Shown here: piece by piece, positions 4,074 to 28,453 of the stretch
How positions within the stretch are numbered: position 1 is the first letter of the stretch
How the letters are laid out: each line of letters starts with the position of its first letter
DNA from: Nannocystaceae bacterium ST9
Lineage (GTDB): Bacteria; Myxococcota_A; Polyangia; Nannocystales; Nannocystaceae
Length of the DNA stretch: 64,000 bases
NCBI GenBank assembly: GCA_048320885.1
Contig: JBLWFJ010000001.1
Span: 1,285,642 to 1,349,641, forward strand
Reading direction: 5' to 3'
Notes under the pieces: model-generated
Databases searched by the model: none
What the model was told of the DNA's origin: nothing
Seen by the model: only the letters and a program-made list of their open reading frames with translations
Made by a program: the position numbers and the translations under genes

Positions 4074-4085
4074 TCGCTCGAGCGC

Positions 4086-6362: not shown

Positions 6363-6375
6363 TGTTCGTGCGAGC

Positions 6376-7275: not shown

Positions 7276-7338
7276 CGAACGCGAGCGAGAGCACGTCCAG
7301 GGCCTCGCGCGCGCAACGAGTTCGCGGGCGGCAGAGCC

Positions 7339-8338: not shown

Positions 8339-8896
8339 ATGAGTAGCCGCATCGACACGCGAATCGTGCGACTCTTCGACCCGAACTGGAAGCCGTCCAT
8401 GATCGGCGCTCGTCGGTCCGTCCATCTCGGCGACACCGCGCTTGCCGACACCGCCGAAGTGATCGCCAGCCAGCCTCGGATCGACCCGCTGCTCTCGCTC
8501 GCGCGCCACCGCCAGCTCGAGGCCCTGCGCTCCTCGGGCTGTCGAACCCTCGATTGTGGCTGGGCCCGCGAGGTCGCGCGCGAGGTCGCTCGAATGAGCG
8601 AATGCGATTGGCATCGAGGCCCGGCCCTCGCCGTTCGCCTGCACGAGCCCGGCGGCTCCGTGGTGTGGACCCGGTTGCTCCGAATCACGAGCGATCGGGT
8701 CTGGCTGAGCCCGCAAGCCGGGCTCGAGCTCGGAGTCCGCGTCGTGATCGAGCGCGACGACCCCGTCAGCGACACCCACATCGAGATCGCCGGCCATTGC
8801 AGCGAATCCACGCGCGAATCCATCATCGTATGTACCGACGGTCATTCGACGATCGTCCGGCCAGCGATCGCAATCTGCGACCATCGATTCGAATGA
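8339..8896 (+). CDS. hypothetical protein
   Basis: 185 aa ORF with moderate GC3, next to the AT-rich segment; no recognised motifs. Confidence 0.35.
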   Translation: MSSRIDTRIVRLFDPNWKPSMIGARRSVHLGDTALADTAEVIASQPRIDPLLSLARHRQLEALRSSGCRTLDCGWAREVAREVARMSECDWHRGPALAVRLHEPGGSVVWTRLLRITSDRVWLSPQAGLELGVRVVIERDDPVSDTHIEIAGHCSESTRESIIVCTDGHSTIVRPAIAICDHRFE

Positions 8897-8929
8897 TTTA
8901 ATTTCATCCTCCGTGCTCGACATTTTCGA

Positions 8930-11041: not shown

Positions 11042-11143
11042 GTCGATGAATCCGAGCCGGGCCGCTCCCCCTCGGCCCGGCTCGGATTCACGCTCCGATT
11101 CCGATTCCAGCCACCGATTCTAGACCCCCCGAAAGAAACGACG

Positions 11144-12832
11144 ATGCGAATTCGACCACTCCACGATTGGCGATGTCCACGATTGAGCCTCGAGACCCTC
11201 GCGCTGATCTTCGAATGCAGCCTGACGTTGGGCTGCGTCGTGCTCGGGCCCAAGGGCTCGGGCGACGAACAGGGCGAGAGCAGCGGCGATACCAGCGACG
11301 ACGACGAGGATCCGAGCGAGGACTCGAGCGACCCGACCAGCGGGGGCGATTCCACCGACCCCGACGGCACCGACGGCACCGACGGCAGCGACGGCACCGA
11401 CGGCACCGGCACCGACGGCGAGCCCGATGCCCCGGTCTGTGGTGATGGCCGGGTCGACCCCGGCGAGGGCTGCGACGACGGCAACCTCGTCGACGACGAC
11501 GCGTGTTCGAACGCGTGCGCCCCGGCGACCTGTGGCGACGCCATCTTGCAAGTCGGCGAGCAATGCGACGACGGCAACCTCGTCGACGAAGACGGCTGCC
11601 TGAACGACTGCGCCGCGGCGACCTGTGGCGACGCCGTCGTGTGGGCGAACGTCGAGGTCTGCGACTTCGGGCCGGCCAACTCCGACGAGGGCGGCTGCAC
11701 GCTGGCGTGCGCGCTGCCGATCTGTGGCGACGGCTTCGTGCAGGACGGCGAGCAGTGCGACGCCGGGCCCGACAACGGCAGCGAGGGCTACTGTCTGCCC
11801 GGCTGCGTCGAGAACGAATGTGGCGACGGCCACGAGGCCCCCGACGAGCCCTGCGACGACGGCAATGGCATCCCCGGCGACGGCTGCTTCGGCTGTCGGC
11901 TCGAGCGCTGCGGCGACGGGATCATCGAGGCCGGCGAGGCCTGCGACGACGGCAACCTCGACGAGGACGACGGCTGCACCAGCGTGTGCTTGCTGCCGAC
12001 CTGCGGCGACGGGTTCGTCCAGCAGGGCGAGCAATGCGACGCCGGCGAGAACAACGGCGACGACGAAGCCTGCACCCGCCACTGTCAGATCGCGACCTGC
12101 GGCGACGGCCTGATCTGGGCGGAGTTCGAGACCTGCGATCAGGGCCCCTTCAACGCCGACGACGGCGCCTGCACCTCGGCCTGCAAGGCCGGCATCTGCG
12201 GTGACGCGCTGGTCGGGCCCGGCGAGCTGTGTGACGACGGCAACGCGATCGACGACGACGGCTGCACCAGCACCTGCACGGTCGCGAGCTGTGGCGACGG
12301 GGTCGAACAGGCGCCCGAGGCCTGCGACGACGGCAACGGCGTCGGCGAGGACGCGTGCAGCAACGCGTGCACGCTGGCGACCTGCGGCGACGGGCTGCAG
12401 CAAGCCGAAGAGAGCTGCGATCTCGGCTCGCTCAACGGCATGTCGGCCTGGTGCACCCCGCTCTGCCACGCGCAGGTCTGCGGCGACGGCATCTACTTCC
12501 CGCTCGGCGGCGAGGAGTGCGACGACGGCAACGCGATCGAGAGCGACGGCTGCAACGGCGAGTGCGACGAGGCCGAGTGCGGCAACGGGCACCTCGAGCT
12601 GCCCGAGCAGTGCGACGACGGCAACGCGATCGAGGGTGACGGCTGCACCAACGCCTGCCTCGAGCAGATCTGCGGCGACGGAGTCGTGCAGGCCGGCGAG
12701 GCCTGCGAAGACGGCAACCTGCTCGGACAGACCTGCGACTCGATCAGTCAGGGCGAGCTGCCCTTCGGCGAGCTCGGCTGCGACGCCAGCTGCAAGCCGA
12801 CGACCGATGCCTGCAGCGCGGAGGGAGGCTGA
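11144..12832 (+). CDS. secreted lipoprotein with myxobacterial Cys-rich repeats (second paralogue)
   Basis: Lipobox LTLGC; acidic low-complexity linker (GSGDEQGESSGDTSDDDEDPSEDSSD...); 14 or more CGDG repeats; first gene of a tightly coupled operon. Confidence 0.8.
   Translation: MRIRPLHDWRCPRLSLETLALIFECSLTLGCVVLGPKGSGDEQGESSGDTSDDDEDPSEDSSDPTSGGDSTDPDGTDGTDGSDGTDGTGTDGEPDAPVCGDGRVDPGEGCDDGNLVDDDACSNACAPATCGDAILQVGEQCDDGNLVDEDGCLNDCAAATCGDAVVWANVEVCDFGPANSDEGGCTLACALPICGDGFVQDGEQCDAGPDNGSEGYCLPGCVENECGDGHEAPDEPCDDGNGIPGDGCFGCRLERCGDGIIEAGEACDDGNLDEDDGCTSVCLLPTCGDGFVQQGEQCDAGENNGDDEACTRHCQIATCGDGLIWAEFETCDQGPFNADDGACTSACKAGICGDALVGPGELCDDGNAIDDDGCTSTCTVASCGDGVEQAPEACDDGNGVGEDACSNACTLATCGDGLQQAEESCDLGSLNGMSAWCTPLCHAQVCGDGIYFPLGGEECDDGNAIESDGCNGECDEAECGNGHLELPEQCDDGNAIEGDGCTNACLEQICGDGVVQAGEACEDGNLLGQTCDSISQGELPFGELGCDASCKPTTDACSAEGG
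12823..12827 (+). promoter_or_regulatory. GGAGG ribosome-binding site for 12835..13254
   Basis: gagGGAGGctgatcATG; the upstream TGA stop is 2 nt before the ATG. Confidence 0.5.
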
Positions 12833-12834
12833 TC

Positions 12835-13254
12835 ATGAAACGCCGCGCTCGCGTCCTGGTCCACGAGGAGCTGGTCGGCCTGCTCCGACGAGCCAGCGTT
12901 CGCGCCGAGGTCGTCAACCTCGCGCGCGAGACCTGGCCGAGCGAGCCCGAGGCGCTCGAGCAGCTCGACCTGCTGGCCGACTACGCGTGGGTCGCCGCGG
13001 CCGACGAGACCGCGACCCCGTCGGTCGGCGGGCGCGTGCGGATCGAGCTCTTGATGCGGGCGGCCTCGTTGGCCCGCCTGCTCTGCCTGCACCTCGAGTT
13101 GCTCGCCCGCGAGCCGGTCGGCGCGCGGCGGGTGCTCGAGCTGGCCGAGCGGTTGGTCTGGGGCGAGCTCGACGAGTCCGAGAGTCGCCTGCCGGTCAAG
13201 TCGCAGCGCTGGCGCACTCATGTCCGCGCGTGGACCCGCGCGTTCGGATCATGA
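12835..13254 (+). CDS. hypothetical protein, paralogue A of a tandem pair
   Basis: 139 aa; paralogous to 13347..13841 (RVRIELLMRAASLARLL...LELAERLVWGELDESE vs RLRVALLMRAASLSNLL...LALAEAIAWSDLPKSE). Confidence 0.6.
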   Translation: MKRRARVLVHEELVGLLRRASVRAEVVNLARETWPSEPEALEQLDLLADYAWVAAADETATPSVGGRVRIELLMRAASLARLLCLHLELLAREPVGARRVLELAERLVWGELDESESRLPVKSQRWRTHVRAWTRAFGS

Positions 13255-13300
13255 TCGAATCATGATCATGCCAATCGAATCATGATCATGCCAATCGAAT
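13249..13300. repeat. 20 bp tandem repeat (catgatcatgccaatcgaat, about 2.5 copies)
   Basis: Direct tandem repeat in the 92 bp gap between paralogues A and B. Confidence 0.7.
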
Positions 13301-13346
13301 CCACGGATCAAAGTCTTCGACCCGCTCACCGAATGATGGTGCTGAC

Positions 13347-17676: not shown

Positions 17677-17808
17677 ACGCGATCGGGCCCGCACGCCGGC
17701 AGGCCGCCGCGGCCCTCGTCGCGGGCGCCTTCGAAGCGGACCTGGCCGAGTTCGCGGGCGGCGAAGCCATCACGGGCGAAGCCATCACGAATGGGCTAAA
17801 CCTTTGTC

Positions 17809-18666
17809 GTGCGCAGCCCTTCGATCCTGCCCCTCGCCTTGCTACTGCCCTGCGCCGCGTGTGGACGCGTCGGTGGAGAGACCGACGACGAAGTCGGCGA
17901 GACCGCGGGGACCGACGCGACCAGCGAGGACTCGGGCTCGTCCGACGCGAACAGCGAGGACTCGTCCGACATGAGCAGCGCGTCCGATTCGACCAGCGAT
18001 GGCGTCGACTCGACCGACACCGGCGACTCGACCGACACCGGCGATCCCGACTGTCCGGCCTTCCCCGCCGACCCGGCCGAGTTCAGCTACTCGATCGACG
18101 TCCCGGGCGTGGATCCCTGGGAGGTCGACGTGCGCTGGACCTGCAGCGTGCTCGAGGTCGAGACCCTCGATGGATTCTCGCTCACGCTCGACTGCCCCGA
18201 CGCGCCCGAGCCGGTCACGCTCTCGATCCTGACCGACCCGCTGCTGAATCCGCCGCTCGCCATCGGCGACGTCGTCGACCTGAGCTACGTGATCCAGGCA
18301 TCTTGGTGGCAGAGCACCTACGTCCGGCTGGACCTGCAAGGCGTCGGCCATCTGCTCACGTTGATCGACGCCGACTCGATCATGCCCTTCCAGTCCGTCG
18401 CGTTCGAGCTGCCCTTCGAGATCACCACGATCACGGATCTGTGCGAGGTTCAGAACTGGGACTGTGGCCAGCGCGAGCGGCTCGGGCTGGCGTTCGAGAT
18501 CGGCGGAGAGGCGGTCGTGATGCTCGATGGCAATCACGCGCTCGTCGGCGGCACCCCGGGCACCGACGTCTGGGTCGAAGAGGCCGGGCGCCTGCACGAC
18601 ATCGTGTGCACCGACATCCCCGGGGATTGGTACCGGGTGCTGATCGCCGACACCGGCTCGGAGTAG
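17809..18666 (+). CDS. hypothetical lipoprotein with acidic S/D/T-rich linker
   Basis: GTG start; LLLPCAAC signal/lipobox-like; low-complexity SEDSGSSDANSEDSSD linker; a paralogue remnant lies at 7339..7661. Confidence 0.65.
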   Translation: MRSPSILPLALLLPCAACGRVGGETDDEVGETAGTDATSEDSGSSDANSEDSSDMSSASDSTSDGVDSTDTGDSTDTGDPDCPAFPADPAEFSYSIDVPGVDPWEVDVRWTCSVLEVETLDGFSLTLDCPDAPEPVTLSILTDPLLNPPLAIGDVVDLSYVIQASWWQSTYVRLDLQGVGHLLTLIDADSIMPFQSVAFELPFEITTITDLCEVQNWDCGQRERLGLAFEIGGEAVVMLDGNHALVGGTPGTDVWVEEAGRLHDIVCTDIPGDWYRVLIADTGSE

Positions 18667-21033
18667 TCAGCCGATCGGGACGCAGACCACGATGGTCTCC
18701 GACTGGTTGTCCTCGTCGCACTCGTTGAGCGCGCCTTGCCCGAGCTCGTCTTCGTCGACGACCGCCCACACGCTCGCCGACGACTGCATCTGCATGCTCT
18801 CGAGCGTGACGGTCTGCTTGCCGCCGGCCGGGATCGCGGCTTGAGTCTGCACGCTGCCGAGGAAGCCGAGCTCTTCGGAGAAGAACGAGACCTCGACGCC
18901 CGGGCCGACGCCGAGGCAGCCGATGTTGACCACGTCGACGCTCAGGTTCAGCGTCGGGCAGGCCATGTCGTCGGCGCGCAGATCGAAGAGCTCGAGGTTG
19001 GGCGCGCAGAAGTCCGAGCCGCCCTGGATGTTGCAGCGATAGTTGTTGTAGGGGTCGCCGATCGGAGTCAGCCACGAGCTCTCCTCGACCAGCGGGATGC
19101 CACCGTCAATCCCGACGTTGGTGATGTGATAGCTGTGCTGATTCCAGATCGGTCGGGTGCTGACCCAGTTGTCGAGCGAGTCGCCCCAGACCTCGATGCC
19201 CGCGTCGAGCCCCCAGGCGATGTCGGAGTTGCTCGAGAACACCAGTTCGGCCTTGAAGTCGCCGTCGACGTCGGCGACGACCGGATACTCGGTGCGGGTC
19301 CGCGAAGTGTTGGGGTCCTTGAACAAGACCTCGCTCTCGTCCATCACCCCGTCGCAGAGCGGCCCGGGTGGGTTCAGGGCGCAGTCGGGCTCGATGCCCG
19401 GATAGATGCGCAGGAAGTACTCGTCGTTGTAGATGACCTCGTTGCGACCGTCGCCGTCGAAGTCGAACACCGACGAGCCGGTCACGCGCGACGAGTCGTC
19501 TTCGGTCACCGCTCGCCACATCTCGGTGAAGCTGGCCCCGTCGAAGGCGACCACGACATAACGGCTCGCGCCCGCGCTGGCGACGTCGGGCTGACCGTCG
19601 CCGTCGAAGTCGGCGATGTTGGGCGCACCGCCACCGTCGGGGGTGCCGGGGATCGGGATGCTGTCGATCGTCGTGCCGTCCTGGCCGTCGAGCGCGTAGA
19701 TCGTGCCGCCGCGGACCAAGATGACCTCGGGCAGGCCGTCGCCGTCGAAGTCGGCCACGCCACACTTGCCGTCGCCGGGCGCCGCCGTCCAGTAGATCAT
19801 CCCGGTGAAGTCGCCGCCCATCGCGGTGCCGGTGGTCTTGTAGGCCGTGCGCCCGCCGATCAGCTCGGGCCGCAGATCGCCGTCGAGGTCGGCCACGCAC
19901 GAGATCGGGCCCTGCAGGTCGAAGCCGATCCCCTGCGTGCCCTCCCAGAGCTTGGTGCCGGTGCTCGAGAACACCGCGGCCCCGAACACGATCTCGGGCT
20001 CGCCCTGGCCGTCGAGGTTGGCGATCGCCGTCGAGCCGCTGGTCTCGCCGCCGGTGAAGTTCTGCGAGGTCCACAGCGGCGTGCCGTCGTGATCGATCGC
20101 GATCAGGTACTTGCCCTCGCCCTGCACGACGACCTCTAGCTCGGGGTCGCCATCGATGTTGCCGATCGCCGGATTGGCGGTGCCGTCGGACTGATAGGCC
20201 GGATCGCTGACCCACCAGATCTGCTCGCCGGTGTCGCCTCGCAGCGCGCGAAGGATCCCGTTGGCCCCGGCGTCCCCGGACGGGTAGCTGTTGAACACGA
20301 TCTCGGGCACGCAGTCGCCGTCGAGATCGCCGACGACCGGGATCGACGACACGTGGGTCTGGGCCGGCGAGTCGATGACCGGCACGTGCGGCCACGAGGG
20401 CGTGCACACGCTGTTCACACAGACCTCGGCGGTCTGGCAGACGCTGTCGTCCACGCACGCGACCTGCTTGCGAGTGCCCCAGGTGAACTCGGGTCGCGGC
20501 GCGAACTGGGCCGGCGGCGGAACGTACTGACAGTTGGGATCGGCCATGCTCGGCACGCACTGGCCGAGCTCGGCGTCGCAGGTGTAGCCGGGGTCGCAGG
20601 TCGAGGTGTCGGGCTTGGTCGCGCAGCTGAACTCCGAGCAGGCCCCGGCCGGCACCACGCACGCGCCGAGGTAGCAGACCTCCGAGTCCGCGCAGCATTG
20701 GCCCTCCGACCCGCACGCCGGCACGCCGCCGCAGTCGTCGTCGCAGGCGCCCTCGAAGCAGACCTGGCCCTCGTCGCAACACGCCCCCGCACACTCGATC
20801 TGCTCGTCGGTGCAGGCCGGCCCGGTCTCGCTGCCGCTGGTGTCGAAGCTCGAGCTCGCGTCCTCGCTGCCCGAGTCGCTGCCATCGCTCGTGGTCGTGC
20901 TCAGGCTCTCGTTGGTCAGCGCCTCGTCGTCGCCGACTCGCCCGTCGTCGCCACCACAGCCGCTCGCGCCCACGACGAAGCCGAGCGCGAGGAACAAGCG
21001 AAGGGACGCGGGGGGAAGCGAGTCAGGACGCAT
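18667..21033 (-). CDS. FG-GAP/VCBS repeat lipoprotein with Cys-rich N-terminal region
   Basis: Lipobox GASGC; repeated DxDGDGxxE/FG-GAP motifs (GDLDGDCVPEIV, ADLDGDLRPELI, ADFDGDGLPEVI, ADFDGDGQPDV, FDFDGDGRNEVI, ADVDGDFKAELV). Confidence 0.8.
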   Translation of the reverse strand: MRPDSLPPASLRLFLALGFVVGASGCGGDDGRVGDDEALTNESLSTTTSDGSDSGSEDASSSFDTSGSETGPACTDEQIECAGACCDEGQVCFEGACDDDCGGVPACGSEGQCCADSEVCYLGACVVPAGACSEFSCATKPDTSTCDPGYTCDAELGQCVPSMADPNCQYVPPPAQFAPRPEFTWGTRKQVACVDDSVCQTAEVCVNSVCTPSWPHVPVIDSPAQTHVSSIPVVGDLDGDCVPEIVFNSYPSGDAGANGILRALRGDTGEQIWWVSDPAYQSDGTANPAIGNIDGDPELEVVVQGEGKYLIAIDHDGTPLWTSQNFTGGETSGSTAIANLDGQGEPEIVFGAAVFSSTGTKLWEGTQGIGFDLQGPISCVADLDGDLRPELIGGRTAYKTTGTAMGGDFTGMIYWTAAPGDGKCGVADFDGDGLPEVILVRGGTIYALDGQDGTTIDSIPIPGTPDGGGAPNIADFDGDGQPDVASAGASRYVVVAFDGASFTEMWRAVTEDDSSRVTGSSVFDFDGDGRNEVIYNDEYFLRIYPGIEPDCALNPPGPLCDGVMDESEVLFKDPNTSRTRTEYPVVADVDGDFKAELVFSSNSDIAWGLDAGIEVWGDSLDNWVSTRPIWNQHSYHITNVGIDGGIPLVEESSWLTPIGDPYNNYRCNIQGGSDFCAPNLELFDLRADDMACPTLNLSVDVVNIGCLGVGPGVEVSFFSEELGFLGSVQTQAAIPAGGKQTVTLESMQMQSSASVWAVVDEDELGQGALNECDEDNQSETIVVCVPIG

Positions 21034-21120
21034 GGCGTGAAACTATGCGCTCGCGCGGCGCAGATCAGCACGAGATCGACGAGGGCTCGCGAAGCCGGCT
21101 CGAACTCGATTTTCGACCTT

Positions 21121-21161
21121 CGCGAGCTCGTGCGCGCACGGGCATGCGCGAGCTCGTGCGC
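21121..21161. promoter_or_regulatory. direct repeat cgcgagctcgtgcgc x2 in the divergent intergenic region
   Basis: Two copies 10 bp apart between 18667..21033 (-) and 21220..23415 (+); candidate operator. Confidence 0.3.
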
Positions 21162-21219
21162 CCTGATCCTACGACCGCGACACGAAAATTCACGAACGTG
21201 CTGCTGTAGTCTCCTCGTG

Positions 21220-23415
21220 ATGACGCGTCGCCGGCAGATTGCCCTCGCGCTCGGCTTCGCTGGGCTCGCGCTGCTCGTGTCGACCTGCCGCGGCCGCCAC
21301 GAGGGCCCCGGCAGCGTTCACCCCGATCCCGTGCCCGCGCCGATCGTCGAGGCCCGCGAGCGCGAGCAGGTCGAGCGGGCGGCCGCGCTGGGGGTCGAGC
21401 CCGACGCCAAGCAGATCCTGTTCGGCGATCTGCACGTGCACACGACCTTCTCGCCCGACGCGTTCTTGCGCAGCCTGCCCTTGGTCGGTGGCGAAGGCAC
21501 GCATCCGCCGGCCGACGCCTGCGACTACGCTCGCTTTTGCAGTGGGCTCGACTTCTTCGCGGTCACCGATCACGCCGAGGGCCTGACCCACGAGCACTGG
21601 CGCGAGACCATCGAGTCGATCCGCGACTGCAACGCGGCCGCCGGCGACCCCGACGATCCCGACCTCGCGGCGTTCGTCGGGTTCGAGTGGACGCAGGTCG
21701 GGGCCACCGTCGACGATCACTACGGACACAAGAACGTGCTGTTTCGCGGGACCGCCGACGACGAGCTGCCGGCCCGGCCGATCGCCGCCGGCGGCCCGCT
21801 GGTCCAGGCCCTGCGCGCGACCCAGATCAACGCCAAGACCATGTGGCTGCCGCTGATCGACGGCCAGCAGCCGCGCCGCTACTTCGACTATCGCCGCTAT
21901 CGCCAGGAGATCGCCGCGATGCCCGATTGCCCGGTCGACGTCGACGTCCACCAGCTTCCGCTCGACTGCCGCGAGCAAGCCAGCACGCCCGCCGAGCTCT
22001 ACGCCAAGCTCGATCAGTGGGGCCTCGACTCGCTGGTGATCCCGCACGGCACGACCTGGGGCTTCTACACGCCGCCCGGCTACGTCTGGCACGAGCTCGC
22101 CGAGTCCGACGAACGACAGAGGTTGATCGAGGTCTACTCGGGCCACGGCAATTCCGAGGAGTGGCGCAGCTTCTCGGCCGCCGAGCGGGTCGCCGGCGAG
22201 TGGGTGTGCCCGCAGCCGACGCCCGAGTTCGAACCTTGTTGCTGGCGCGCGGGCGAGCTGATCCGCGAGCGCTGCGGCGACGCTCCGGCGGCCACCTGCG
22301 AGGCGCGAGTCGAGCGAGCGCGCCGGCTCTACCTCGACGCCGGCGTGTCCGGCCACCAGGTCGTGCCCGGGGCCACGGTCGAGGACTGGGGCGACTGCGA
22401 TCAATGCCGCGACTGCTTCAACCCCAGCTACAGCCACCGCGCCGGTGGTTCGGTCCAGGCGATCCTGGCCCGCGGCGCGACCTTCGGGATGATCGCGTCG
22501 AGCGACAACCACCTCGCGCGTCCGGGCACCGGCTACAAGGAGTTCGGTCGACACGGCAACACCGAGACGGTCGGGGCCCGATCGCCGCGCTTCGACGGCT
22601 ACTTCCGCGGTCGCGATCGCCGACCCACGCCCGAGCCCGAGCGCTTCGATCCCGAGGATCGCTCGATCCCTCCCTTCGCGCAGGCCTACCTCGAGCGACA
22701 AGCCTCGTTCTTCATGACCGGTGGCCTGGTCGCGGTCCATGCCGGCGGCCGCGACCGCGACTCGATCTGGTCGGCGCTCGAGCGGCGCGAGGTCTACGGG
22801 ACCTCGGGCGAGCGGATCTTGCTCTGGTTCGATCTCGTCGGCGGTCCGCCGGGGCTCTCGGAGCCGCTGCCGATGGGCAGCGTGGTCGAGCTGCCCGACG
22901 ACTCGCTGCCCCGCTTTCGCGTGCGCGCGGCCGGCAGCTTCGAGCAGCTGCCCGGCTGCCCGACCTGGGTCGAGGACCAGCTCTCCGACGAGCGGATCCA
23001 CGGCCTGTGCCTCGACGAATGCCACAACCCCGCCGATCGCCGGCGAGCGATCACGCGGATCGAGGTCGTGCGGATCCGGCCCCAGCAGCGCCCCGACGAG
23101 CCGATCGACGCGTTGATCGAAGATCCCTGGCAGACCTTCCCCTGCCCCGCCGACGCCCAGGGTTGCTCCATCGAATTCGAAGACCCCGAGTTCGCCGGCG
23201 GCCGCACCACGCTCTACTACGTCCGCGCGATCCAGGAGCCCACCCCGGCCGTCAACGCGGGCGGCCTGCGCTGCCAAGGCGAGGCCTGCGAGCGGCTCGA
23301 CGTCTGCTACGGCGACTACCGGACCGAGTTCGACGACGAGTGCGTCAGCCCCAACGAGGAGCGGGCCTGGTCGTCGCCGATCTGGCTGCACCCGACGCGA
23401 GTCGTCACGCCATGA
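21220..23415 (+). CDS. DUF3604-family lipoprotein (PHP-like metal-dependent hydrolase fold)
   Basis: Lipobox LLVSTC; GDLHVHTTFSPDAF...FFAVTDHAE, characteristic of DUF3604/PHP. Confidence 0.7.
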   Translation: MTRRRQIALALGFAGLALLVSTCRGRHEGPGSVHPDPVPAPIVEAREREQVERAAALGVEPDAKQILFGDLHVHTTFSPDAFLRSLPLVGGEGTHPPADACDYARFCSGLDFFAVTDHAEGLTHEHWRETIESIRDCNAAAGDPDDPDLAAFVGFEWTQVGATVDDHYGHKNVLFRGTADDELPARPIAAGGPLVQALRATQINAKTMWLPLIDGQQPRRYFDYRRYRQEIAAMPDCPVDVDVHQLPLDCREQASTPAELYAKLDQWGLDSLVIPHGTTWGFYTPPGYVWHELAESDERQRLIEVYSGHGNSEEWRSFSAAERVAGEWVCPQPTPEFEPCCWRAGELIRERCGDAPAATCEARVERARRLYLDAGVSGHQVVPGATVEDWGDCDQCRDCFNPSYSHRAGGSVQAILARGATFGMIASSDNHLARPGTGYKEFGRHGNTETVGARSPRFDGYFRGRDRRPTPEPERFDPEDRSIPPFAQAYLERQASFFMTGGLVAVHAGGRDRDSIWSALERREVYGTSGERILLWFDLVGGPPGLSEPLPMGSVVELPDDSLPRFRVRAAGSFEQLPGCPTWVEDQLSDERIHGLCLDECHNPADRRRAITRIEVVRIRPQQRPDEPIDALIEDPWQTFPCPADAQGCSIEFEDPEFAGGRTTLYYVRAIQEPTPAVNAGGLRCQGEACERLDVCYGDYRTEFDDECVSPNEERAWSSPIWLHPTRVVTP

Positions 23416-24329
23416 CCCGCATGATCAGCGAGACCCGCATGATCAGCGAGACCCGCATGATCAGCATGATCAGCGAGCCCGACCCGAAGCAGGATCGCTC
23501 GTTCATGCTGGCCATGCTGGTCGGCGCGAGCCTGGCGTTGCTCGGGCTCTTCGTCGAGCTCGATGCTCCGGCGCCGCGCGTGCCCGCGGGCGCGGTCGCG
23601 ATCGTCGACGGCACGCCGATCCCCGAGGCCGACTACGAGCGAGCCCTGGCCGCGCTCGCGGCCGACCTGCGTAGGCCGCTCACCGACGCCGATCGCCGCC
23701 ACGTGATCGATCGGCTGATCGACGAGCTCCTGCTGGTCGAGCACGGCCTCGCGCTCGGGCTGGTCCGCAGCGATCCCTACTTGCGCACGGCGGTCAGTCG
23801 CGCCGTGCTCGATCGCGTGCAAGCCGAGGTCGCGACCGGCGAAGCGGCGAGCGAGCTCGAGCTGCGCAGCCATCATCGCGCTCACCCCGAGCGCTTCGCC
23901 GCGACCGATCGGATCGCGCTCGACGGGCTCTTCTTTCGCACGCTCGACGACGCGGCCCGAGCCCGCGAGCAGTGGGTCCGCGGCGAACCTCGCCGAACGT
24001 TCGCCGCCCGAGCGCTTCGCCCCGCGCTCGCGCTGCCCTCGACGCCGCTGCCACCCGGCAAGCTGCGCGACTACCTGGGCCCGCGCGCCAGCGAGCTCGC
24101 GCTCGCGCTCGAGGTCGGGCAGATCAGCGAGCCGATCGCCGTCGAGGGCGGCGCGTGGTTGCTCGAGTGCCGCGCCCGCACGCTCGGGCGAGCCCGGCCC
24201 TTCGCCGAGGTCCGCGAGCTGGTCGAGGCCGACCTCCGCCGCGAGCGTGAAGACCAGGCCCTGCGCGAGCGGATCGCCGCGCTGCGCGACGCCGCCGTGA
24301 TCGTGATCCGCGAGGAGTCCGACGAATGA
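23412..24329 (+). CDS. SurA/PpiC-like periplasmic chaperone/PPIase with N-terminal MISETR tandem repeat
   Basis: ATGA overlap with the DUF3604 stop; SurA_N-like region followed by a degenerate parvulin-like segment (LRDYLGPRASELALALEVGQISEPIAVEGGAWLLEC). Confidence 0.6.
   Translation: MTRMISETRMISETRMISMISEPDPKQDRSFMLAMLVGASLALLGLFVELDAPAPRVPAGAVAIVDGTPIPEADYERALAALAADLRRPLTDADRRHVIDRLIDELLLVEHGLALGLVRSDPYLRTAVSRAVLDRVQAEVATGEAASELELRSHHRAHPERFAATDRIALDGLFFRTLDDAARAREQWVRGEPRRTFAARALRPALALPSTPLPPGKLRDYLGPRASELALALEVGQISEPIAVEGGAWLLECRARTLGRARPFAEVRELVEADLRREREDQALRERIAALRDAAVIVIREESDE
23421..23480 (+). repeat. 18 bp coding tandem repeat (atgatcagcgagacccgc, about 3 copies)
   Basis: Encodes MISETR-MISETR-MIS-MISEP at the N-terminus of 23412..24329. 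Confidence 0.7.
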
Positions 24330-25447
24330 GGGCGCTGTGGACCGCGCTCGCGCTGCTGCTGGCCCTGCTCGCGCCCACGCTCGCGCTCGCGCACGGCCGC
24401 GACACCTCGCACTCGCGCTGGCGAGTCGAGGGCGATCGGGTCGAGGTCGCGATCCAGATCGCCGCCCGCGATCACGCCCGCTTTCCGAGCTCGCAGAGCT
24501 TGATCGAGCGCTTCGTGATCGAGGGTGACGCGGGCGAATGCCGACCGCTGCTCGAGACCCTCGACGAGCGCGCGACCGCGACCGGCGAGTTGGTCATGCG
24601 CTGGCGCTTCGACTGCGCCGGCGTGTCCGCCCCGCGTACGATCCACGTCGAGCTGTTCGAGGCGCTCGGCCCCGCCCACGTGCACGTGCTCGCCCGCGAG
24701 GGCAGCGAGCGCGAGCTGGTCCTGAGCGCGAGCGCGACCAAGGCCCCGCTCGACCCCGACGCCGAGCCGACGCTCGCATGGTCCGCGTTCCTGCGCCTGG
24801 GCCTGGTCCACATGCTGAGCGGCTGGGATCACCTCGCGTTCGTGCTCGCCCTGCTGATCGCCGCCGGCAGCCTGCGCCGCGCCCTGCTGCTGATCACCGG
24901 ATTCACGCTCGGGCACAGCCTGACCCTCGCCCTGTGTGCGCTCGACCTGCTGCGTCCGCACGCGAGCGCCGTCGAGCTGCTGATCGCCGCGAGCATCGTG
25001 ATCGTCGCCGCGCAGGACTTCGATCCCGAGCGCCGCGCCGGCGTGCCCGAGCAAGTCGCCGGCATGCTCGCGCTCGCGGCCCTGCTCGCCGCCGTTCGCC
25101 AGCAAGCCAGCGCGCTCGCGGCCTGCGGCGCCGCGCTCTTCGCCTGGGGCTACCTGCACCACGCCCGCGCGGACACCCGCGTGCTGCTGGTCGCCGCGTT
25201 CGGGCTGATCCACGGGGCCGGGTTCGCGGCGATCCTGCACGACACCGGACTGCCGACCGACGCCCGCGTCGGCGCGCTGCTGGCCTTCAACCTCGGCGTC
25301 GAGCTCGGTGGTCTCGCCTTCGTGGCCCTGCTCTGGCCCGCGCTCGCTTGGGCCTCGCGCAAGCGCCTCGCGCTCGCACGCCCGCTCGGCTTGCTGCTCG
25401 CCTGCCTCGGCACCGCGTGGGTCGTGCAGCGAGCCGGCGGGATCTGA
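24326..25447 (+). CDS. HupE/UreJ-family membrane protein with N-terminal periplasmic extension
   Basis: ATGA overlap with the upstream stop; GWDHLAFVLALL and GLIHGAGFA motifs; signal peptide plus roughly 160 aa soluble N-domain. Confidence 0.6.
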   Translation: MRALWTALALLLALLAPTLALAHGRDTSHSRWRVEGDRVEVAIQIAARDHARFPSSQSLIERFVIEGDAGECRPLLETLDERATATGELVMRWRFDCAGVSAPRTIHVELFEALGPAHVHVLAREGSERELVLSASATKAPLDPDAEPTLAWSAFLRLGLVHMLSGWDHLAFVLALLIAAGSLRRALLLITGFTLGHSLTLALCALDLLRPHASAVELLIAASIVIVAAQDFDPERRAGVPEQVAGMLALAALLAAVRQQASALAACGAALFAWGYLHHARADTRVLLVAAFGLIHGAGFAAILHDTGLPTDARVGALLAFNLGVELGGLAFVALLWPALAWASRKRLALARPLGLLLACLGTAWVVQRAGGI

Positions 25448-25487
25448 GTCGATCGCGATCTCGCCACCCGCTATTCTCGCCCGCGCC

Positions 25488-25968
25488 GTGCCGATCCCCG
25501 CCGAGTTCCAGGCCGAGAGCCTCTACGCGCCCGACCAGTGGTACATCCACGACCTGCTCGAGGTCGAGCGCGACCCCAGCGAGGGCCTCGATCGCGTCGT
25601 CGCGCTCTGCGACACCGCCACGCTCGCCGACCACCCGATCGTCGCCGCCCAGCGCGAGTGGCCCGGCCAACCCAAGCACGTGCCCGGGATCGTCATGGTC
25701 CAGATCACCGGCACGCTCGGCAACCTGCACGCCGTCTGCGTGATGGGCCTGAAGATGAGAGGGCTGGGTCGGGTTCGGGACCAACATCCACGAGGCCAGG
25801 TTCTCGGGGATCGGCCGGATCGGGCCGGGGTTGGTCTGCGAGCTGAAGATCGAGCGAATGCGGCGGATCAAGGGCCAGGTGTTCGGGACCTACGCGTTTC
25901 GCTTCGAGCAGGAGGGGAAGGTGATCTATCGGTCGCGGCAGACCGCGAGCTGGTCGCGGGTCGGGTAG
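25488..25968 (+). pseudogene. FabZ/FabA-like hotdog dehydratase with apparent +1 frameshift (around 25751-25770)
   Basis: N-part in frame 0 (...DHPIVAAQREWPGQPKHVPGIVMVQITGTLGNLHAVCVMGLKM); C-part in frame 1 (GFGTNIHEARFSGIGRIGPGLVCELKIERMRRIKGQVFGTYAFRFEQEGKVIY...), matching the FabZ C-terminus; join point in the run gagggctgg. Confidence 0.55.
25803..25917 (+). repeat. direct repeat copy A (3' end of the FabZ-like gene)
   Basis: About 95% identical to 28505..28616; the two copies bracket the HK/REC-Mrr cassette. Confidence 0.8.
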
Positions 25969-25976: not shown

Positions 25977-26897
25977 CTACTTGGCGCCTGCGCTGGTCTC
26001 GATCGCGCGTTGATGCAGCGTCTTGAGCACTTCGTTGCGCGCGGGGTCGTCCACCAAGCGCTGGAGCTCGTCGGGCCCGATCGGAACGACGACGATGTTC
26101 TCCCGGCGACGCGTCGCCAGCGTGGCCGCGAACCCCTTGGTGAATCCATTGGCCGCGATGAAGAAACCGAGCGTGGCCCGTCCGAAGCGGCGCTCGAGTT
26201 TGTTGGTGAAGCGATCGAGCTCATTGGGGCCGACGCTGCCGCTCCAGTTCTTGCACTCCACCAAGAAGTATTGACTCTCCTTGGTCCAGAAGGGATCGAT
26301 GGACTCGTTGCGAACGACGAGATCGAACTCCTCGTCGAGGCCGCGTCGGCGGGTGGCGACGACGAAGCCCGGCGCCGCCCGAAAGATCGACTCGACGAGA
26401 TCCTCCAAGATCCGCCCTTTCTCGGCGCTCGTGGTCGCCCCACGAACTTGGGCCTGCAACTCGCTCAGGCGCGTGGAGACCTCGTCTTCCGCGGAGGTCA
26501 GCCATCGCTCGCGGGCCAACTCGATCGCGTTTCGGACCTTGGCCCGCAGCAGCGTCTTGAAGTTTTCGGTCTTCTCGACGTAATCGTAGACTCCGACCTT
26601 GAACGCACGCTCGATCGTCTCGGGGCTCGCGTAGCCGGTGACGATGATGATCTTGGCGCCCGGGCTCCTTCGTTCGACCTCCTCGATCAATTCGAGGCCC
26701 TCGTCGCCGCCCGCGGATCCATGCAAGCGTTGATCGAGCAGCACGACCGACCAATCGCCTTGGTCGAGCGCGTCCACGGCTTGCTGATAGCTCGACACTC
26801 CCGTCACGCTCAGACCGTCGAGACCCAGCATTTCGCCATAGATGGCGAGGATGTTCTTTTCGTCGTCGACGGCGAGGATCTTGTCGTAGCGATTCAC
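25977..26897 (-). CDS. response regulator: REC domain fused to Mrr-like restriction endonuclease (PD-(D/E)xK) domain
   Basis: REC (ILAVDDEKNIL...VVLLDQRL...KIIIVTGY); C-terminal EDLVESIFRA...EEFDLVV...FLVECKNWSGSVGPNELDRF, typical Mrr_cat D...E.K core; lower GC than the surroundings. Confidence 0.7.
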   Translation of the reverse strand: MNRYDKILAVDDEKNILAIYGEMLGLDGLSVTGVSSYQQAVDALDQGDWSVVLLDQRLHGSAGGDEGLELIEEVERRSPGAKIIIVTGYASPETIERAFKVGVYDYVEKTENFKTLLRAKVRNAIELARERWLTSAEDEVSTRLSELQAQVRGATTSAEKGRILEDLVESIFRAAPGFVVATRRRGLDEEFDLVVRNESIDPFWTKESQYFLVECKNWSGSVGPNELDRFTNKLERRFGRATLGFFIAANGFTKGFAATLATRRRENIVVVPIGPDELQRLVDDPARNEVLKTLHQRAIETSAGAK

Positions 26898-28453
26898 TGT
26901 CCCTCCTGGATCGCGGGCAACTCTATGTGAAACCGAGCACCACCGTCAACCGACCCCTCGCACGTCACCTTGCCACCGAAGTCGCGTTCGACGACCTCTC
27001 GGACCAAGGCCAAGCCATGGCCGGCTCCATCGGGCCGACCCGAGACTCCGTGGTCGAAGATTCGCTCGCGGAGCGGCTCTGGGACGCCCGGACCGTCGTC
27101 CTCGACCGTCAGATGAATCGCGTCGGGATCCCGAGCATCGACCACGATCGAGATCTGGACATCGGGCCCTCCACTCTGCATCGCGTTGCGCAGAATGTTG
27201 ACGATCGCCAGCACCGCGCGGCCGCGATGCCCGCGGGTCTTGGGGCCCGCTGCGCCCGGCACCGTCTCGACGCGAATGCTGCCCCGAAACTCCGGAGACA
27301 GCGCGCGACGGGCCTCTTCGATCACGTCCAGCACCGCGAATGACGTGATGGCATCGTCGATCGGCGAGCTCATTCGTACGGATGTCTCGACAAAGCGATA
27401 GAGGCGGGTGATGCCGCCCTCGATCTGCTCGCGCGGCATGGCGAGTGATTCTTCCAGATCGGCCTGCGCGACGGCCATCCAGACCTTGTCGAGCGCATGC
27501 CGGATGGGAAGCAGCGCGTTTCGGACTTCGTGCGCGACCAGTCGCATCTGTCGCATCGCCGCGGCCGTCGATTGATTCTCTCGATCGACGTCGCCGACCG
27601 AGAGAATCACTTCGCTGCGGTCATCTTCCATTTGAGCCAACGCCGCGGATCGAAAGGAGGCGAGGACGTCGGAGTTGACGGCGGCGAACAGATCATTGCC
27701 GAGCGCCGTCAACTCGTACCCGATCCGGTGCTCCCCGTATTCTCCCTCATGCAGCACTCCCAATGCGGACCAACGGGCGATCCCGGACCAACCCAACAAC
27801 GTACGCTCTTCGTCATTGTCGATGGTGAACGTGTATCCTGCGCGCTGGAGGATCAGAGATACATACGCCGTACCGACACACCAGGCATCGCCGAGCCCCC
27901 CTCCGCGAACACCCTCCAACGCGATCAACCATCGCACTCGATCGATCCCGCGCAAGCTCAGAAAGGTCTTGCCGGAGAGGCTCACGAGCGGGCCGCCGAG
28001 TCGCACGCCGACCAGCCCGAGGTGCTCGCAATACCGAGAGACGATCTGCCACGGGTATTTGCCCGACGTGGCTTGCACATCTCGTGTTACCCTTCGTGCC
28101 AGCTCTTCCAGTCGTACGCGCCTCGGCCATTCGATCGAGGAGAACGAGGGATCGTCGATATCCACCGCGATGGCGATGGCCGCGTCGATGTGGTCGCGGC
28201 GCGACTGCCACGACAGCCGAGCCGCAAAGCCTGCCAACAACTCCCAGTGCATTTCGTCGACGAAGTGCGAAAGGACGTGTGTTCCCCATTCGCTAAACCT
28301 TGCGGCCGGGGCCGCCTCGCGCTCGAACAGCGACACCAGGGTCGCCTCATGATGCGAAAGGTCTGGCGGCCTGTCCGCCTCCACCGCCTCCGTCGCCTCG
28401 ATGCTCTGCACTCGGCGCAGGTGGTGCTCGATCTGCGCGACGAAGTCGGACAC
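26894..28453 (-). CDS. cytoplasmic sensor histidine kinase with uncharacterised roughly 300 aa N-terminal domain
   Basis: GTG start; H-box VAHEVRNALLPI; HATPase_c GHGLALVREVVERDFGG; no TM segments; stop overlaps the RR ATG (ATGA). Confidence 0.75.
   Translation of the reverse strand: MSDFVAQIEHHLRRVQSIEATEAVEADRPPDLSHHEATLVSLFEREAAPAARFSEWGTHVLSHFVDEMHWELLAGFAARLSWQSRRDHIDAAIAIAVDIDDPSFSSIEWPRRVRLEELARRVTRDVQATSGKYPWQIVSRYCEHLGLVGVRLGGPLVSLSGKTFLSLRGIDRVRWLIALEGVRGGGLGDAWCVGTAYVSLILQRAGYTFTIDNDEERTLLGWSGIARWSALGVLHEGEYGEHRIGYELTALGNDLFAAVNSDVLASFRSAALAQMEDDRSEVILSVGDVDRENQSTAAAMRQMRLVAHEVRNALLPIRHALDKVWMAVAQADLEESLAMPREQIEGGITRLYRFVETSVRMSSPIDDAITSFAVLDVIEEARRALSPEFRGSIRVETVPGAAGPKTRGHRGRAVLAIVNILRNAMQSGGPDVQISIVVDARDPDAIHLTVEDDGPGVPEPLRERIFDHGVSGRPDGAGHGLALVREVVERDFGGKVTCEGSVDGGARFHIELPAIQEGQ

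What the first reader, a model, noticed from the sequence alone, without database searches (positions are those of the whole stretch)
21220..25447. Translationally coupled trio: DUF3604 lipoprotein, repeat-headed SurA-like PPIase and HupE/UreJ-like membrane protein
All three junctions are ATGA overlaps (23412-23415 and 24326-24329). DUF3604 proteins have a PHP-like metal-hydrolase fold and HupE/UreJ proteins are Ni/Co transporters, so a secreted metalloenzyme may be co-expressed with its chaperone and a metal supplier. The PPIase begins with an 18 bp tandem DNA repeat encoding MISETR-MISETR-MISMISEP directly at the start codon. That is an unusual place for a repeat and could act as a slippage-prone translational tuning element or alternative start set.
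Basis: partly seen in the sequence, partly recalled or inferred. Interest (0 to 1): 0.55.

Follow-up and report, generated by a model that had tools for sequence, protein, structure and literature searches.

The report
Conserved envelope metal operon; incidental start repeat
Three overlapping genes for a membrane-tethered metal-dependent hydrolase, a SurA-like folding helper and a metal-catching permease form an operon that recurs across several bacterial phyla, while the eye-catching 18-base repeat at the start of the middle gene is an insertion seen only in this genome, with no evidence of a regulatory role.

Summary
Gene 1 (21220-23415) is DUF3604 with a PHP fold. Gene 2 (23412-24329) is a SurA/PEB4/PrsA-like protein with a Rotamase_2 domain. 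Gene 3 (24326-25447) is HupE_UreJ_2 (PF13795, not PF04955). Both junctions are ATGA overlaps. A perfect 18-bp x 2.9 repeat sits at 23414-23465.

The window matches Nannocystaceae bacterium ST9, where all three genes are already annotated. PGAP starts gene 2 at 23505, after the repeat.

The trio recurs in Myxococcota, Binatia and Proteobacteria. The tight core is the gene 2-gene 3 pair: adjacent in 59 of 74 loci, with a 4-nt overlap in about 70%. DUF3604 joins in about a third.

Gene 3 has the published "anglerase" architecture: signal peptide, invariant N-terminal His, a beta-sandwich resembling ZrgA, PA4063 and Ang-1, then the permease. Gene 2 lacks both parvulin histidines, so it is more likely a chaperone than an isomerase.

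The repeat is a 72-75 bp in-frame insertion absent from the four closest orthologous loci. Its units are multiples of three, so slippage cannot switch the gene off. Similar perfect duplications occur elsewhere in the window. It does create five in-phase AUGA motifs and a strong hairpin (z -4.95) over the internal start. That hairpin is unexplained.

Verdict: a real, conserved, uncharacterised operon of a known kind; the repeat is probably neutral.

The parts
21220..23415 (+). Gene 1: a 731-aa protein of a DUF3604 subfamily with a PHP-type metal-dependent hydrolase fold. It is predicted to be tethered to the membrane on the periplasmic side.
21220..21288 (+). Gene 1 signal peptide ending in a lipobox-like LLVST|C. 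Cys23 is encoded at 21286-21288 and is followed by the conserved motif RGRHEGPG.
   Evidence: A hydrophobic segment spans residues 7-25. In homologues this Cys aligns either with canonical LAGC/LAAC lipoboxes or with an uncleaved signal anchor of the form ...IYGGG-RHEGPG. Lipidation is inferred, not shown.
23412..23415 (+). ATGA overlap: the gene 1 stop (TGA, 23413-23415) overlaps the orthologous gene 2 start (ATG, 23412-23414).
   Evidence: Read directly from the sequence. The same ATGA follows the conserved gene 1 C-terminus in L001, L003, L092, L093 and L089.
23412..24329 (+). Gene 2: a membrane-anchored periplasmic chaperone of the SurA/PEB4/PrsA type with a degenerate parvulin domain. It is 305 aa if it starts at 23412. 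PGAP aa from 23505.
   Evidence: Rotamase_2, E 1.1e-9. A family profile matches PEB4/Cbf2 (3rfw) at 2.7e-12, HP0175 at 6.8e-12, SurA at 1.8e-11 and PrsA at 5.8e-9. There is a single TM segment at residues 29-54. The positions of the two parvulin histidines are Gly and Trp. GC3 is 0.97 in this frame over 23412-23504, against 0.40 and 0.47 in the other frames.
23414..23480 (+). Tandem repeat: an 18-bp unit in 2.9 perfect copies, plus a 9-bp half-unit. It supplies ATGs at 23421, 23439, 23457 and 23466, each as ATGA, in phase with the ATG at 23412.
   Evidence: TRF, the repeat finder family D1 and the list of in-frame starts and gene 1-frame stops.
23418..23492 (+). Lineage-specific in-frame insertion of 72-75 bp (24-25 codons) in the cytoplasmic N-terminal tail of gene 2. 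It consists of the repeat plus CCCGACCCGAAGCAG.
   Evidence: The junction alignment with four orthologous loci runs ATGACC straight into (G/T)AGCG..TTC with no repeat. Protein alignment A1 shows the same.
23445..23527 (+). Predicted RNA hairpin. The last repeat units (ATGs at 23457 and 23466) pair with the FMLAMLV codons (ATGs at 23505 and 23514). The AGGA at 23491-23494 sits at the apex.
   Evidence: MFE -43.8 kcal/mol, z -4.95, with 0 of 200 shuffles as stable. Inverted repeat I1 is 20 nt long and 85% complementary. The orthologous junction in L001 has z +0.62. Any function is untested.
24326..24329 (+). ATGA overlap of the gene 2 stop and the gene 3 start.
   Evidence: Read directly from the sequence. 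The same 4-nt overlap occurs at this junction in about 48 of 67 related loci.
24326..25447 (+). Gene 3: a 373-aa 'anglerase'-type protein. Its parts are a signal peptide (residues 1-22), the mature N-terminal His23 (codon 24392-24394), a periplasmic beta-sandwich (residues 27-141) and a HupE/UreJ-2 permease of eight helices (residues 152-370).

Best explanation
This is a conserved three-gene envelope operon of Nannocystaceae bacterium ST9. All three products are predicted to work at the periplasmic face of the inner membrane.

- Gene 1 is a large, cysteine-rich, membrane-tethered PHP-type metallohydrolase from a highly conserved DUF3604 subfamily.
- Gene 2 is an N-terminally anchored SurA/PEB4/PrsA-like chaperone. 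Its parvulin domain has lost the active-site histidines, so it probably holds or folds clients rather than isomerising prolines.
- Gene 3 is an 'anglerase'-HupE/UreJ-2 permease. After signal-peptide cleavage, its N-terminal His on a beta-sandwich domain captures a transition metal (Cu, Ni or Zn are candidates) and passes it to the eight-helix permease.

The stop/start overlaps (ATGA) couple translation, so the three proteins are made together.

The most likely functional logic is as follows. The chaperone and the permease form the core unit. DUF3604 is a metal-dependent client or beneficiary. Its metal loading, or its substrate or product, is linked to that unit.

The 18-bp repeat is a recent in-frame tandem duplication. 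It lies inside a 72-75 bp lineage-specific insertion that lengthens the short cytoplasmic N-terminal tail of the chaperone. It is most likely selectively neutral.

Shown here: domain and fold identities, the conserved gene order and overlaps, the insertion status of the repeat, and the N-terminal His. Inferred: lipidation, which metal, the direction of transport, the chaperone-client relationship, and the neutrality of the repeat.
For: Identity of the proteins:
- Pfam hits and the PDB profile hits for gene 2.
- Invariant metal-ligand-type residues.
- N-terminal His directly after the signal peptide in the homologue N-termini where the signal-peptide end is visible; His23 is an invariant alignment column.
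- The published anglerase-HupE/UreJ-2 architecture, with a measured Cu Kd of 74 nM and Ni Kd of 220 nM for RbAng-1a (PMC12537917).

Synteny:
- The trio is present in L001, L003, L004, L005, L089, L092 and L093.
- Among 80 genome loci, gene 3 lies directly downstream of gene 2 in 59 of 74 loci with enough sequence to tell.
- DUF3604 is adjacent in 24 of them.
- Chance adjacency in multi-Mb genomes would be well under 1%.

Overlaps:
- The gene 2-gene 3 junction has a -4 overlap in about 48 of 67 loci.
- The gene 1-gene 2 junction has -4 in 10 of 24 loci and -8 or -11 in another 6.

Gene 2 start upstream of 23505:
- A conserved (E/D)R(A/S)F motif precedes the TM helix.
- The ATGA is conserved in orthologues.
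- GC3 is 0.97 in the gene 2 frame over this stretch.

Repeat as a lineage-specific insertion:
- It is absent from the orthologous junctions.
- Four other perfect short tandem duplications occur in the same 64 kb.
Against: - The functional link rests on gene neighbourhood only.
- Two of three sampled DUF3604 orthologues stand alone, next to a thioredoxin gene instead.
- 34 of the gene 2-gene 3 pairs have no DUF3604 nearby. So the enzyme does not strictly need the pair, or the reverse.
- HupE/UreJ proteins are known as importers into the cytoplasm (established knowledge of the family; Brito et al. 2010 is cited within PMC12537917). Import would not by itself metallate a periplasmic enzyme.
- The lipobox has Thr at position -1.
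- The hairpin created by the repeat is much more stable than shuffled controls (z -4.95). A purely neutral insertion does not predict that.
- NCBI PGAP places the gene 2 start after the repeat.
Confidence: 0.68

Rival explanations
1. One reading: the repeat is a functional translational device. Five in-phase AUGA motifs within 57 nt would act as a landing pad for ribosomes that terminate gene 1. They would raise re-initiation or produce N-terminal isoforms. The hairpin would block the internal start at 23505, making gene 2 expression depend on gene 1 translation. Copy number would tune the output.
For: - Five ATGs in the gene 2 frame each coincide with a TGA in the gene 1 frame.
- None of the upstream starts has a Shine-Dalgarno-like sequence before it, so coupling is the plausible way in.
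- The hairpin at 23445-23527 has z -4.95 and buries the ATGs at 23505 and 23514 together with the only AGGA.
- The orthologous junction has no such structure.
Against: - It is present in one genome only and absent from all four closest orthologous loci. Those loci manage with a single ATGA.
- Units of 18 and 9 bp preserve the frame.
- Perfect short duplications are frequent in this window.
- The complementarity can be explained by the palindromic CATG and the CAG/CTG content of the unit.
- No population data could be obtained.
Confidence: 0.08
2. The repeat is non-coding. Gene 2 starts at ATG 23505, as NCBI PGAP annotates it. The repeat then lies in an 89-nt spacer between gene 1 and gene 2, and there is no stop/start overlap at this junction.
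For: - The PGAP product P0001 is 274 aa.
- AGGA at 23491-23494 lies 10 nt upstream of 23505. It is the only Shine-Dalgarno-like element near any candidate start.
Against: - The motif (E/D)R(A/S)F just before the TM helix is conserved in the closest homologues. A start at 23505 would cut it off.
- All close orthologues start at the ATGA.
- GC3 is 0.97 in the gene 2 frame across 23412-23504, typical of coding sequence here, against 0.40-0.47 in the other frames.
- 23505 and the AGGA lie inside the predicted hairpin.
Confidence: 0.2
3. The gene 2-gene 3 pair is a self-contained metal-uptake unit that serves cytoplasmic needs. DUF3604 is merely a frequent neighbour with an unrelated periplasmic function such as phosphoester scavenging.
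For: - The pair occurs without DUF3604 in 34 loci.
- DUF3604 occurs without the pair in 2 of 3 sampled loci.
- Neighbours in loci that lack DUF3604 are heterogeneous.
- HupE-type proteins are importers.
Against: - DUF3604 is adjacent in 24 of about 75 loci across several phyla, far above chance. It is often joined by overlapping stop/start codons.
- One locus carries two DUF3604 genes flanking the pair.
Confidence: 0.3
4. The repeat is an assembly or sequencing artefact.
For: Tandem repeats can be mis-counted by assemblers. No reads were available to check.
Against: - The source record is a 6.98-Mb single contig.
- The array is only 67 bp long, well within single reads of any platform.
- It keeps the reading frame and the genome's codon bias.
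- The insertion also contains 15 non-repeated bases.
Confidence: 0.03

Closest known systems
Anglerase-HupE/UreJ-2 permeases (Ang-1 and Ang-2; Franco Cairo et al., Nat Commun 2025, PMC12537917; PDB 9GCE)
   Different: - There is no detectable sequence similarity to RbAng-1a.
- The fold matches ZrgA and PA4063 slightly better than Ang-1.
- The hosts are Myxococcota and Binatia, rather than Pseudomonadota (Ang-1) or Actinomycetota (Ang-2).
- The tightly overlapping SurA-like partner and the DUF3604 partner are not among the neighbours that paper names.
- Metal binding was not tested here.
ZrgA (V. cholerae) and PA4063 (P. aeruginosa), periplasmic zinc-binding/trafficking proteins
   Different: They are free-standing proteins that work with ABC transporters, not domains fused to a HupE/UreJ-2 permease. 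Sequence identity is only 11-16%.
HupE/UreJ Ni/Co permeases (PF04955) encoded with hydrogenase or urease genes
   Same: A small helical metal permease is co-encoded with a metalloenzyme. The HxxxGxDH-type motif in the first helix is conserved here as H162-x3-G166-x-D168-H169.
   Different: Gene 3 matches PF13795, not PF04955. It carries an extra periplasmic domain. The partner enzyme is predicted to be periplasmic, not cytoplasmic.
SurA / PEB4 (Cbf2) / HP0175 / PrsA / PpiD periplasmic chaperone-parvulins
   Same: The profile matches over the full length, with E values from 2.7e-12 to 5.8e-9. The layout is the same: a chaperone module with an inserted parvulin domain. The N-terminal membrane anchor resembles that of PpiD; this comparison rests on my own knowledge of PpiD.
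   Different: Both conserved parvulin histidines are replaced, by Gly and Trp. The gene is fixed next to a metal permease by a 4-nt overlap, an association not described for any of these families in the literature I could search.
PHP-family metal-dependent phosphoesterases (3e38, TM0559, PsfC, EndoQ, YcdX)
   Different: Gene 1 is 731 aa, with large insertions and C-terminal beta domains. It has 21 invariant cysteines and a membrane tether. It is predicted to be extracytoplasmic. Its substrate is unknown. The searchable literature holds one paper that mentions DUF3604, and only in a table.

Membership tests
DUF3604 (PF12228) / PHP superfamily | Pfam model match above the gathering score | tested here: met
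   110.6 bits against a cut-off of 20.4, E 9.5e-32, in 4 stretches. The fragmented match indicates a divergent subfamily.
DUF3604 (PF12228) / PHP superfamily | PHP barrel fold with a conserved His/Asp/Glu metal-ligand set | tested here: met
DUF3604 (PF12228) / PHP superfamily | Metal-dependent hydrolase activity | not testable with these tools
   This needs purified protein, metal analysis and substrate screening.
Bacterial lipoprotein | Lipobox [LVI][ASTVI][GAS]C at the end of a signal peptide | tested here: inconclusive
   The window has V-S-T-C, and Thr at -1 is outside the canonical set. The four closest homologues (P0140-P0143) have VTC or LTC. The Cys aligns with canonical LAGC/LAAC in more distant homologues. 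Other homologues lack the Cys and keep a signal anchor.
SurA/PEB4/PrsA-type chaperone-parvulin | Sequence-profile similarity across the chaperone module and the parvulin domain | tested here: met
   Rotamase_2 scores 39.6 bits against a cut-off of 27. The family profile matches 3rfw at 2.7e-12, 5ez1 at 6.8e-12 and SurA at 1.8e-11 over about 240 residues. The SurA_N_3 model alone is below its cut-off (22.7 against 27.2).
Active parvulin PPIase | The two conserved active-site histidines, in the (H)ILV and G(Y/F)H(V/I) motifs | tested here: not met
   The window has DGLFF and GAWLLE at these positions. Distant family members keep only the second His, as in GYHVV. For this reason the protein is not filed as an active isomerase.
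HupE/UreJ (PF04955) | Match to PF04955 | tested here: not met
   No hit at E <= 0.1. Only the sister model PF13795 matches. A few homologues carry weak PF04955 hits.
HupE_UreJ_2 (PF13795) | Match above the gathering score | tested here: met
   124.1 bits against a cut-off of 24.5, E 5.4e-36.
Anglerase-HupE/UreJ-2 (PMC12537917) | His as the first residue after signal-peptide cleavage, strictly conserved | tested here: met
   The sequence reads ...TLALA|HGRD. His23 is an invariant alignment column. In the homologue N-termini where the signal-peptide end is visible, the His follows an AxA-type site. The cleavage site is inferred from the AxA rule; no signal-peptide predictor was available.
Anglerase-HupE/UreJ-2 (PMC12537917) | Non-cytoplasmic beta-sandwich domain fused N-terminally to the PF13795 permease | tested here: met
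Anglerase-HupE/UreJ-2 (PMC12537917) | Transition-metal binding by the His1 site | not testable with these tools
   This needs thermal-shift, EPR or crystallography, as done in the paper.
Translationally coupled operon | Stop/start overlap conserved among relatives | tested here: met
   The -4 overlap occurs at gene 2-gene 3 in about 48 of 67 loci. At gene 1-gene 2, -4, -8 or -11 occurs in 16 of 24 loci. Coupling itself was not measured.
Contingency / phase-variable simple-sequence repeat | Repeat unit whose gain or loss shifts the reading frame or changes promoter spacing | tested here: not met
   The units are 18 and 9 bp, so every copy-number change stays in frame.
Contingency / phase-variable simple-sequence repeat | Copy number varies between closely related strains | not testable with these tools
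   No close strain was found. The two exact-match metagenome scans returned nothing, and the gene 2 protein cluster has a single member.

The most novel reading that the evidence does not exclude
The membrane-anchored SurA-like chaperone and the His1 'anglerase'-HupE/UreJ-2 permease could together form a dedicated maturation and metal-delivery module for an extracytoplasmic PHP metalloenzyme, the DUF3604 subfamily. In this reading the anglerase domain hands its captured metal to the enzyme at the membrane surface rather than only feeding import, or in addition to it. That would give a first function and a first client to a very widespread, 55-60% conserved, uncharacterised enzyme family. It would also give the anglerases a physiological role. 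As a minor add-on, in ST9 the AUGA array plus hairpin would enforce coupling of chaperone synthesis to enzyme synthesis.
Probability: 0.2. Interest if true: 0.6.

Novelty: new member of a known kind. Interest (0 to 1): 0.3.

Why it matters
DUF3604 proteins of this subfamily are very common. More than 6000 database clusters were found, at 55-60% identity across phyla. They have no known substrate and essentially no literature.

Their recurrent, overlap-coupled association with a chaperone and an anglerase-type metal permease gives a concrete, testable lead. It points to where the enzyme works (the outer face of the inner membrane) and to what it needs (a captured transition metal and a folding helper).

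It also extends the recently described anglerase permeases to Myxococcota and Binatia. And it identifies a constant partner gene that the original study did not name.

The repeat matters mainly as an annotation point. The NCBI start of the chaperone gene is probably 31 codons too short.

Tried and rejected
- A genome scan with the single gene 2 protein found no relatives. It succeeded only with the family alignment.
- Exact look-ups of the window's own gene 3 and of P0001 were not on record.
- Two exact-match metagenome scans returned nothing. One used the junction plus the first repeat unit; the other used the 3' flank of the insertion. Copy-number variation therefore could not be assessed.
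- PDB sequence searches for gene 1 and gene 3 gave no hits. Fold searches were needed instead.
- Rfam at E <= 1 found nothing in 20900-25700.
- Consensus promoter and terminator scans found nothing.
- Literature searches for DUF3604 and HupE_UreJ_2 gave one irrelevant paper and none. The search for HupE with peptidyl-prolyl gave nothing relevant.
- I looked for an alternative conserved third partner in loci lacking DUF3604. The neighbours are heterogeneous, the most frequent being GFO_IDH_MocA in 5 of 65 ORFs.
- I looked for a conserved operator upstream of gene 1 by comparing the window with L001 and L003. Nothing is shared.
- I considered a phase-variation switch and rejected it because the units are multiples of three.
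- I considered a Tat signal (RRRQIAL) for gene 1. The arginines are not conserved in homologues.

Full report
**Source and gene boundaries.** The window has 69.5% G+C. Its three genes are 100% identical to proteins of Nannocystaceae bacterium ST9 (Myxococcota, Nannocystales). There they are annotated as 'DUF3604 domain-containing protein' (731 aa), 'peptidylprolyl isomerase' (274 aa) and 'HupE/UreJ family protein' (373 aa). Three same-strand ORFs lie at 21220-23415, 23412-24329 and 24326-25447. ATGA occurs at 23412-23415 and at 24326-24329. The NCBI gene 2 product corresponds to a start at 23505, 31 codons downstream of the ATGA. In that annotation the repeat is intergenic.

**Check of the observation.** Pfam confirms DUF3604 (PF12228, E 9.5e-32), Rotamase_2 (PF13145, E 1.1e-9) and HupE_UreJ_2 (PF13795, E 5.4e-36). 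The SurA_N_3 match is just below its cut-off. TRF finds a perfect 18-bp repeat of 2.9 copies at 23414-23465, with a 9-bp sub-period running to about 23480. The unit is confined to this spot, with 4 local matches against 0.21 expected by chance. The encoded peptide is M-TRMISE-TRMISE-TRMIS-MISE-PDPKQ-DRSF. The factual part of the finding is therefore confirmed, with two corrections: the Pfam family of gene 3, and two junctions rather than three.

**Where gene 2 starts, and what the repeat is.**
- Homologues at 52-72% identity begin with M, then 1-10 residues, then the motif (E/D)R(A/S)F, then the transmembrane helix. The window has DRSF immediately before the Met at 23505. A start at 23505 would cut off this conserved motif.
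- In four orthologous loci (L001, L003, L092, L093) the conserved C-terminus of gene 1 runs into ATGA. The next codons are already T-(x)-E-R-A-F, with no repeat.
- Relative to these loci, the window carries an in-frame insertion of 72-75 bp (23418-23492). It is made of the repeat plus 15 unique bases.
- Third-position G+C over 23412-23504 is 0.97 in the gene 2 frame and 0.40-0.47 in the other frames. The stretch therefore looks like coding sequence.
- I conclude that the orthologous start is the ATG at 23412. The repeat lengthens a short cytoplasmic tail that already varies in length among homologues.
- The units are 18 and 9 bp, so slippage cannot shift the frame.
- The window holds four other perfect short tandem duplications (13254, 17760, 18006, 62156). 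Events of this kind are ordinary in this genome.
- No close strain could be found to test copy-number variation.

**An unexplained side effect of the repeat.**
- The repeat creates five ATGs in the gene 2 frame, at 23412, 23421, 23439, 23457 and 23466. Each is part of an ATGA, so each also gives a TGA in the gene 1 frame.
- The last repeat units are 85% complementary over 20 nt to the FMLAMLV codons downstream (I1).
- The 83-nt segment 23445-23527 folds to -43.8 kcal/mol, z -4.95, and none of 200 shuffles is as stable.
- The hairpin buries the ATGs at 23505 and 23514 together with the only Shine-Dalgarno-like AGGA.
- The orthologous junction in L001 has no such structure (z +0.62).
- One possible origin is a template-switch copy of the downstream CATGCTGGCCATGCTGG followed by tandem amplification. 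This is inference only.
- The hairpin is the one observation that a purely neutral reading does not predict.

**Gene 3.**
- The AF2 model (pLDDT 90.7) shows a signal peptide, a beta-sandwich at residues 27-141 and eight helices at residues 152-370.
- His23 follows the ALA cleavage motif. It is an invariant column in the 51-sequence alignment, together with H162, G166, D168, H169, H197 and H296.
- The homologue N-termini where the signal-peptide end is visible read AxA|H(G/T/S)R...
[quoted passage not shown] 2025 (PMC12537917).
- That paper describes N-terminal-His beta-sandwich domains fused to PF13795 permeases. It measured binding of Cu (Kd 74 nM) and Ni (Kd 220 nM) and proposed that the domains 'fish' metal ions for the permease.
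- Gene 3 therefore has this known architecture.

**Gene 2.**
- A profile of the family matches PEB4/Cbf2 (2.7e-12), HP0175, SurA and PrsA across about 240 residues.
- There is one N-terminal transmembrane segment.
- The two parvulin histidine positions are Gly and Trp in the window's clade. More distant members keep only the second His.
- I therefore call it a membrane-anchored periplasmic chaperone and do not file it as an active isomerase.

**Gene 1.**
- The subfamily is remarkably conserved. Identity is 55-60% over the full length in Binatia, Myxococcota and other phyla, with more than 6000 clusters.
- It has invariant His, Asp and Glu residues of PHP type and 21 invariant cysteines, including a CxxCxxC motif.
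- After the signal peptide there is either a lipobox Cys or an uncleaved anchor. Both are followed by an invariant (R/G)G-x-H-(E/Q)-G-P-G motif.
- The window's lipobox is VST|C, which is non-canonical. Lipidation is therefore likely but not shown.
- The literature library holds one paper mentioning DUF3604, and only in a table.

**Conservation of the arrangement.**
- Contigs carrying gene 2 homologues show the trio in L001, L003, L004, L092 and L093. L005 has two DUF3604 genes, a GST, a DsbA and a metallo-beta-lactamase.
- A genome scan with the family alignment gave 294 relatives. The 80 kept came mainly from Myxococcota, Binatia, Gamma- and Alphaproteobacteria and MAGs labelled Spirochaetales.
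- By tblastn, gene 3 lies directly downstream of gene 2 in 59 of 74 loci with enough sequence. DUF3604 is adjacent in 24: 19 upstream and 5 nearby.
- Where DUF3604 is missing, the neighbours are heterogeneous.
- From the DUF3604 side, one of three sampled long contigs has the trio (L089). Two have the enzyme alone, next to a thioredoxin gene.
- The gene 2-gene 3 junction is a 4-nt overlap in about 48 of 67 loci. The gene 1-gene 2 junction is -4 in 10 of 24 loci and -8 or -11 in 6 more.
- One caveat applies to these counts. I picked the start nearest to the stop, which favours overlaps. A rough chance expectation for a -4 overlap is below 20%.
- The core unit is therefore chaperone plus permease, and DUF3604 is a recurrent but facultative third member.

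**Mechanism and comparison.** The best-supported picture is a co-translated set of three proteins at the periplasmic face of the inner membrane. The set comprises a metal-capturing permease, a chaperone and a metal-dependent hydrolase.

What remains inferred:
- which metal is involved;
- whether the metal goes into the cytoplasm or to the enzyme;
- whether the chaperone's client is the enzyme, the permease or both.

In kind, this is a metal permease co-encoded with a metalloenzyme and a helper. The precedents are HupE with hydrogenase, UreJ with urease, and anglerases near metallophosphatases.

The differences are:
- the extracytoplasmic PHP enzyme;
- the fixed SurA-like partner;
- the phyla in which it occurs.

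I rate it a new member of a known kind, with modest interest (0.3). The repeat, which was the headline of the finding, is real. It is most likely a neutral, lineage-specific duplication. Its practical consequence is that the NCBI start of gene 2 is probably too far downstream.

Noticed in passing
window 23505 (PGAP start of gene 2) versus 23412: The NCBI product P0001 (274 aa) starts after the repeat. That start cuts off the conserved (E/D)R(A/S)F motif and the ATGA junction that orthologues keep. It is probably 31 codons too short.
   Followed up: yes
window 13254-13301, 17760-17789, 18006-18044, 62156-62233: Four more perfect short tandem duplications occur in the window: 20 bp x2.4, 15 bp x2, 18 bp x2.2 and 36 bp x2.2. 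The first also contains ATGATCATG. Recent slippage duplications seem common in this genome.
   Followed up: partly
window 45539-45665 and 45877-45949: Two arrays of a 12-bp unit, CGAAGGTCGC(G/A)T, with 10.6 and 5.6 copies at about 80% identity. They lie around the end of the ORF at 44751-45818. They could be a binding-site array or a coding low-complexity stretch.
   Followed up: no
window 61463-61682: A 111-bp unit is repeated twice at 95% identity, between the ORFs ending at 61381 and starting at 61752.
   Followed up: no
window 10295-12718 and 53429-54250: Long 93/96-bp coding repeats encode Cys-rich CDDGN...C units, inside the large ORFs at 8897-12832 and about 50067-54698. They look like myxobacterial cysteine-rich repeat proteins; this is my reading and was not tested.
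   Followed up: no
window 21121-21161: A direct repeat, GCGAGCTCGTGCGC x2, lies about 60-100 nt upstream of the gene 1 start. It is a possible operator, but it is not shared with the upstream regions of L001 or L003.
   Followed up: partly
gene 1 residues 23-31 (window 21286-21312) and alignment A3: An invariant His27 sits in the motif (R/G)G-x-H-(E/Q)-G-P-G, directly after the lipobox Cys or signal anchor, in all 40 aligned DUF3604 homologues. Such strict conservation in what looks like a membrane-proximal linker suggests a docking or metal-binding role.
   Followed up: no
L005 (JGI 3300036851), 1627-11174: This is an expanded version of the cluster: DsbA, DUF3604, a GST-like protein, the chaperone, HupE_UreJ_2, a second DUF3604 and a metallo-beta-lactamase-fold protein, all on one strand and mostly overlapping.
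   Followed up: no
L010, L013 and other loci lacking DUF3604: GFO_IDH_MocA oxidoreductases lie upstream of the chaperone-permease pair in 5 of 65 neighbouring ORFs scanned. This is the only recurrent alternative neighbour.
   Followed up: partly
window 25977-28453, minus strand: A response regulator (306 aa, with a restriction-endonuclease-like C-terminal part by eye) and a histidine kinase (519 aa) overlap by 4 nt, immediately downstream of the trio and convergent with it. No link to the operon was examined.
   Followed up: no
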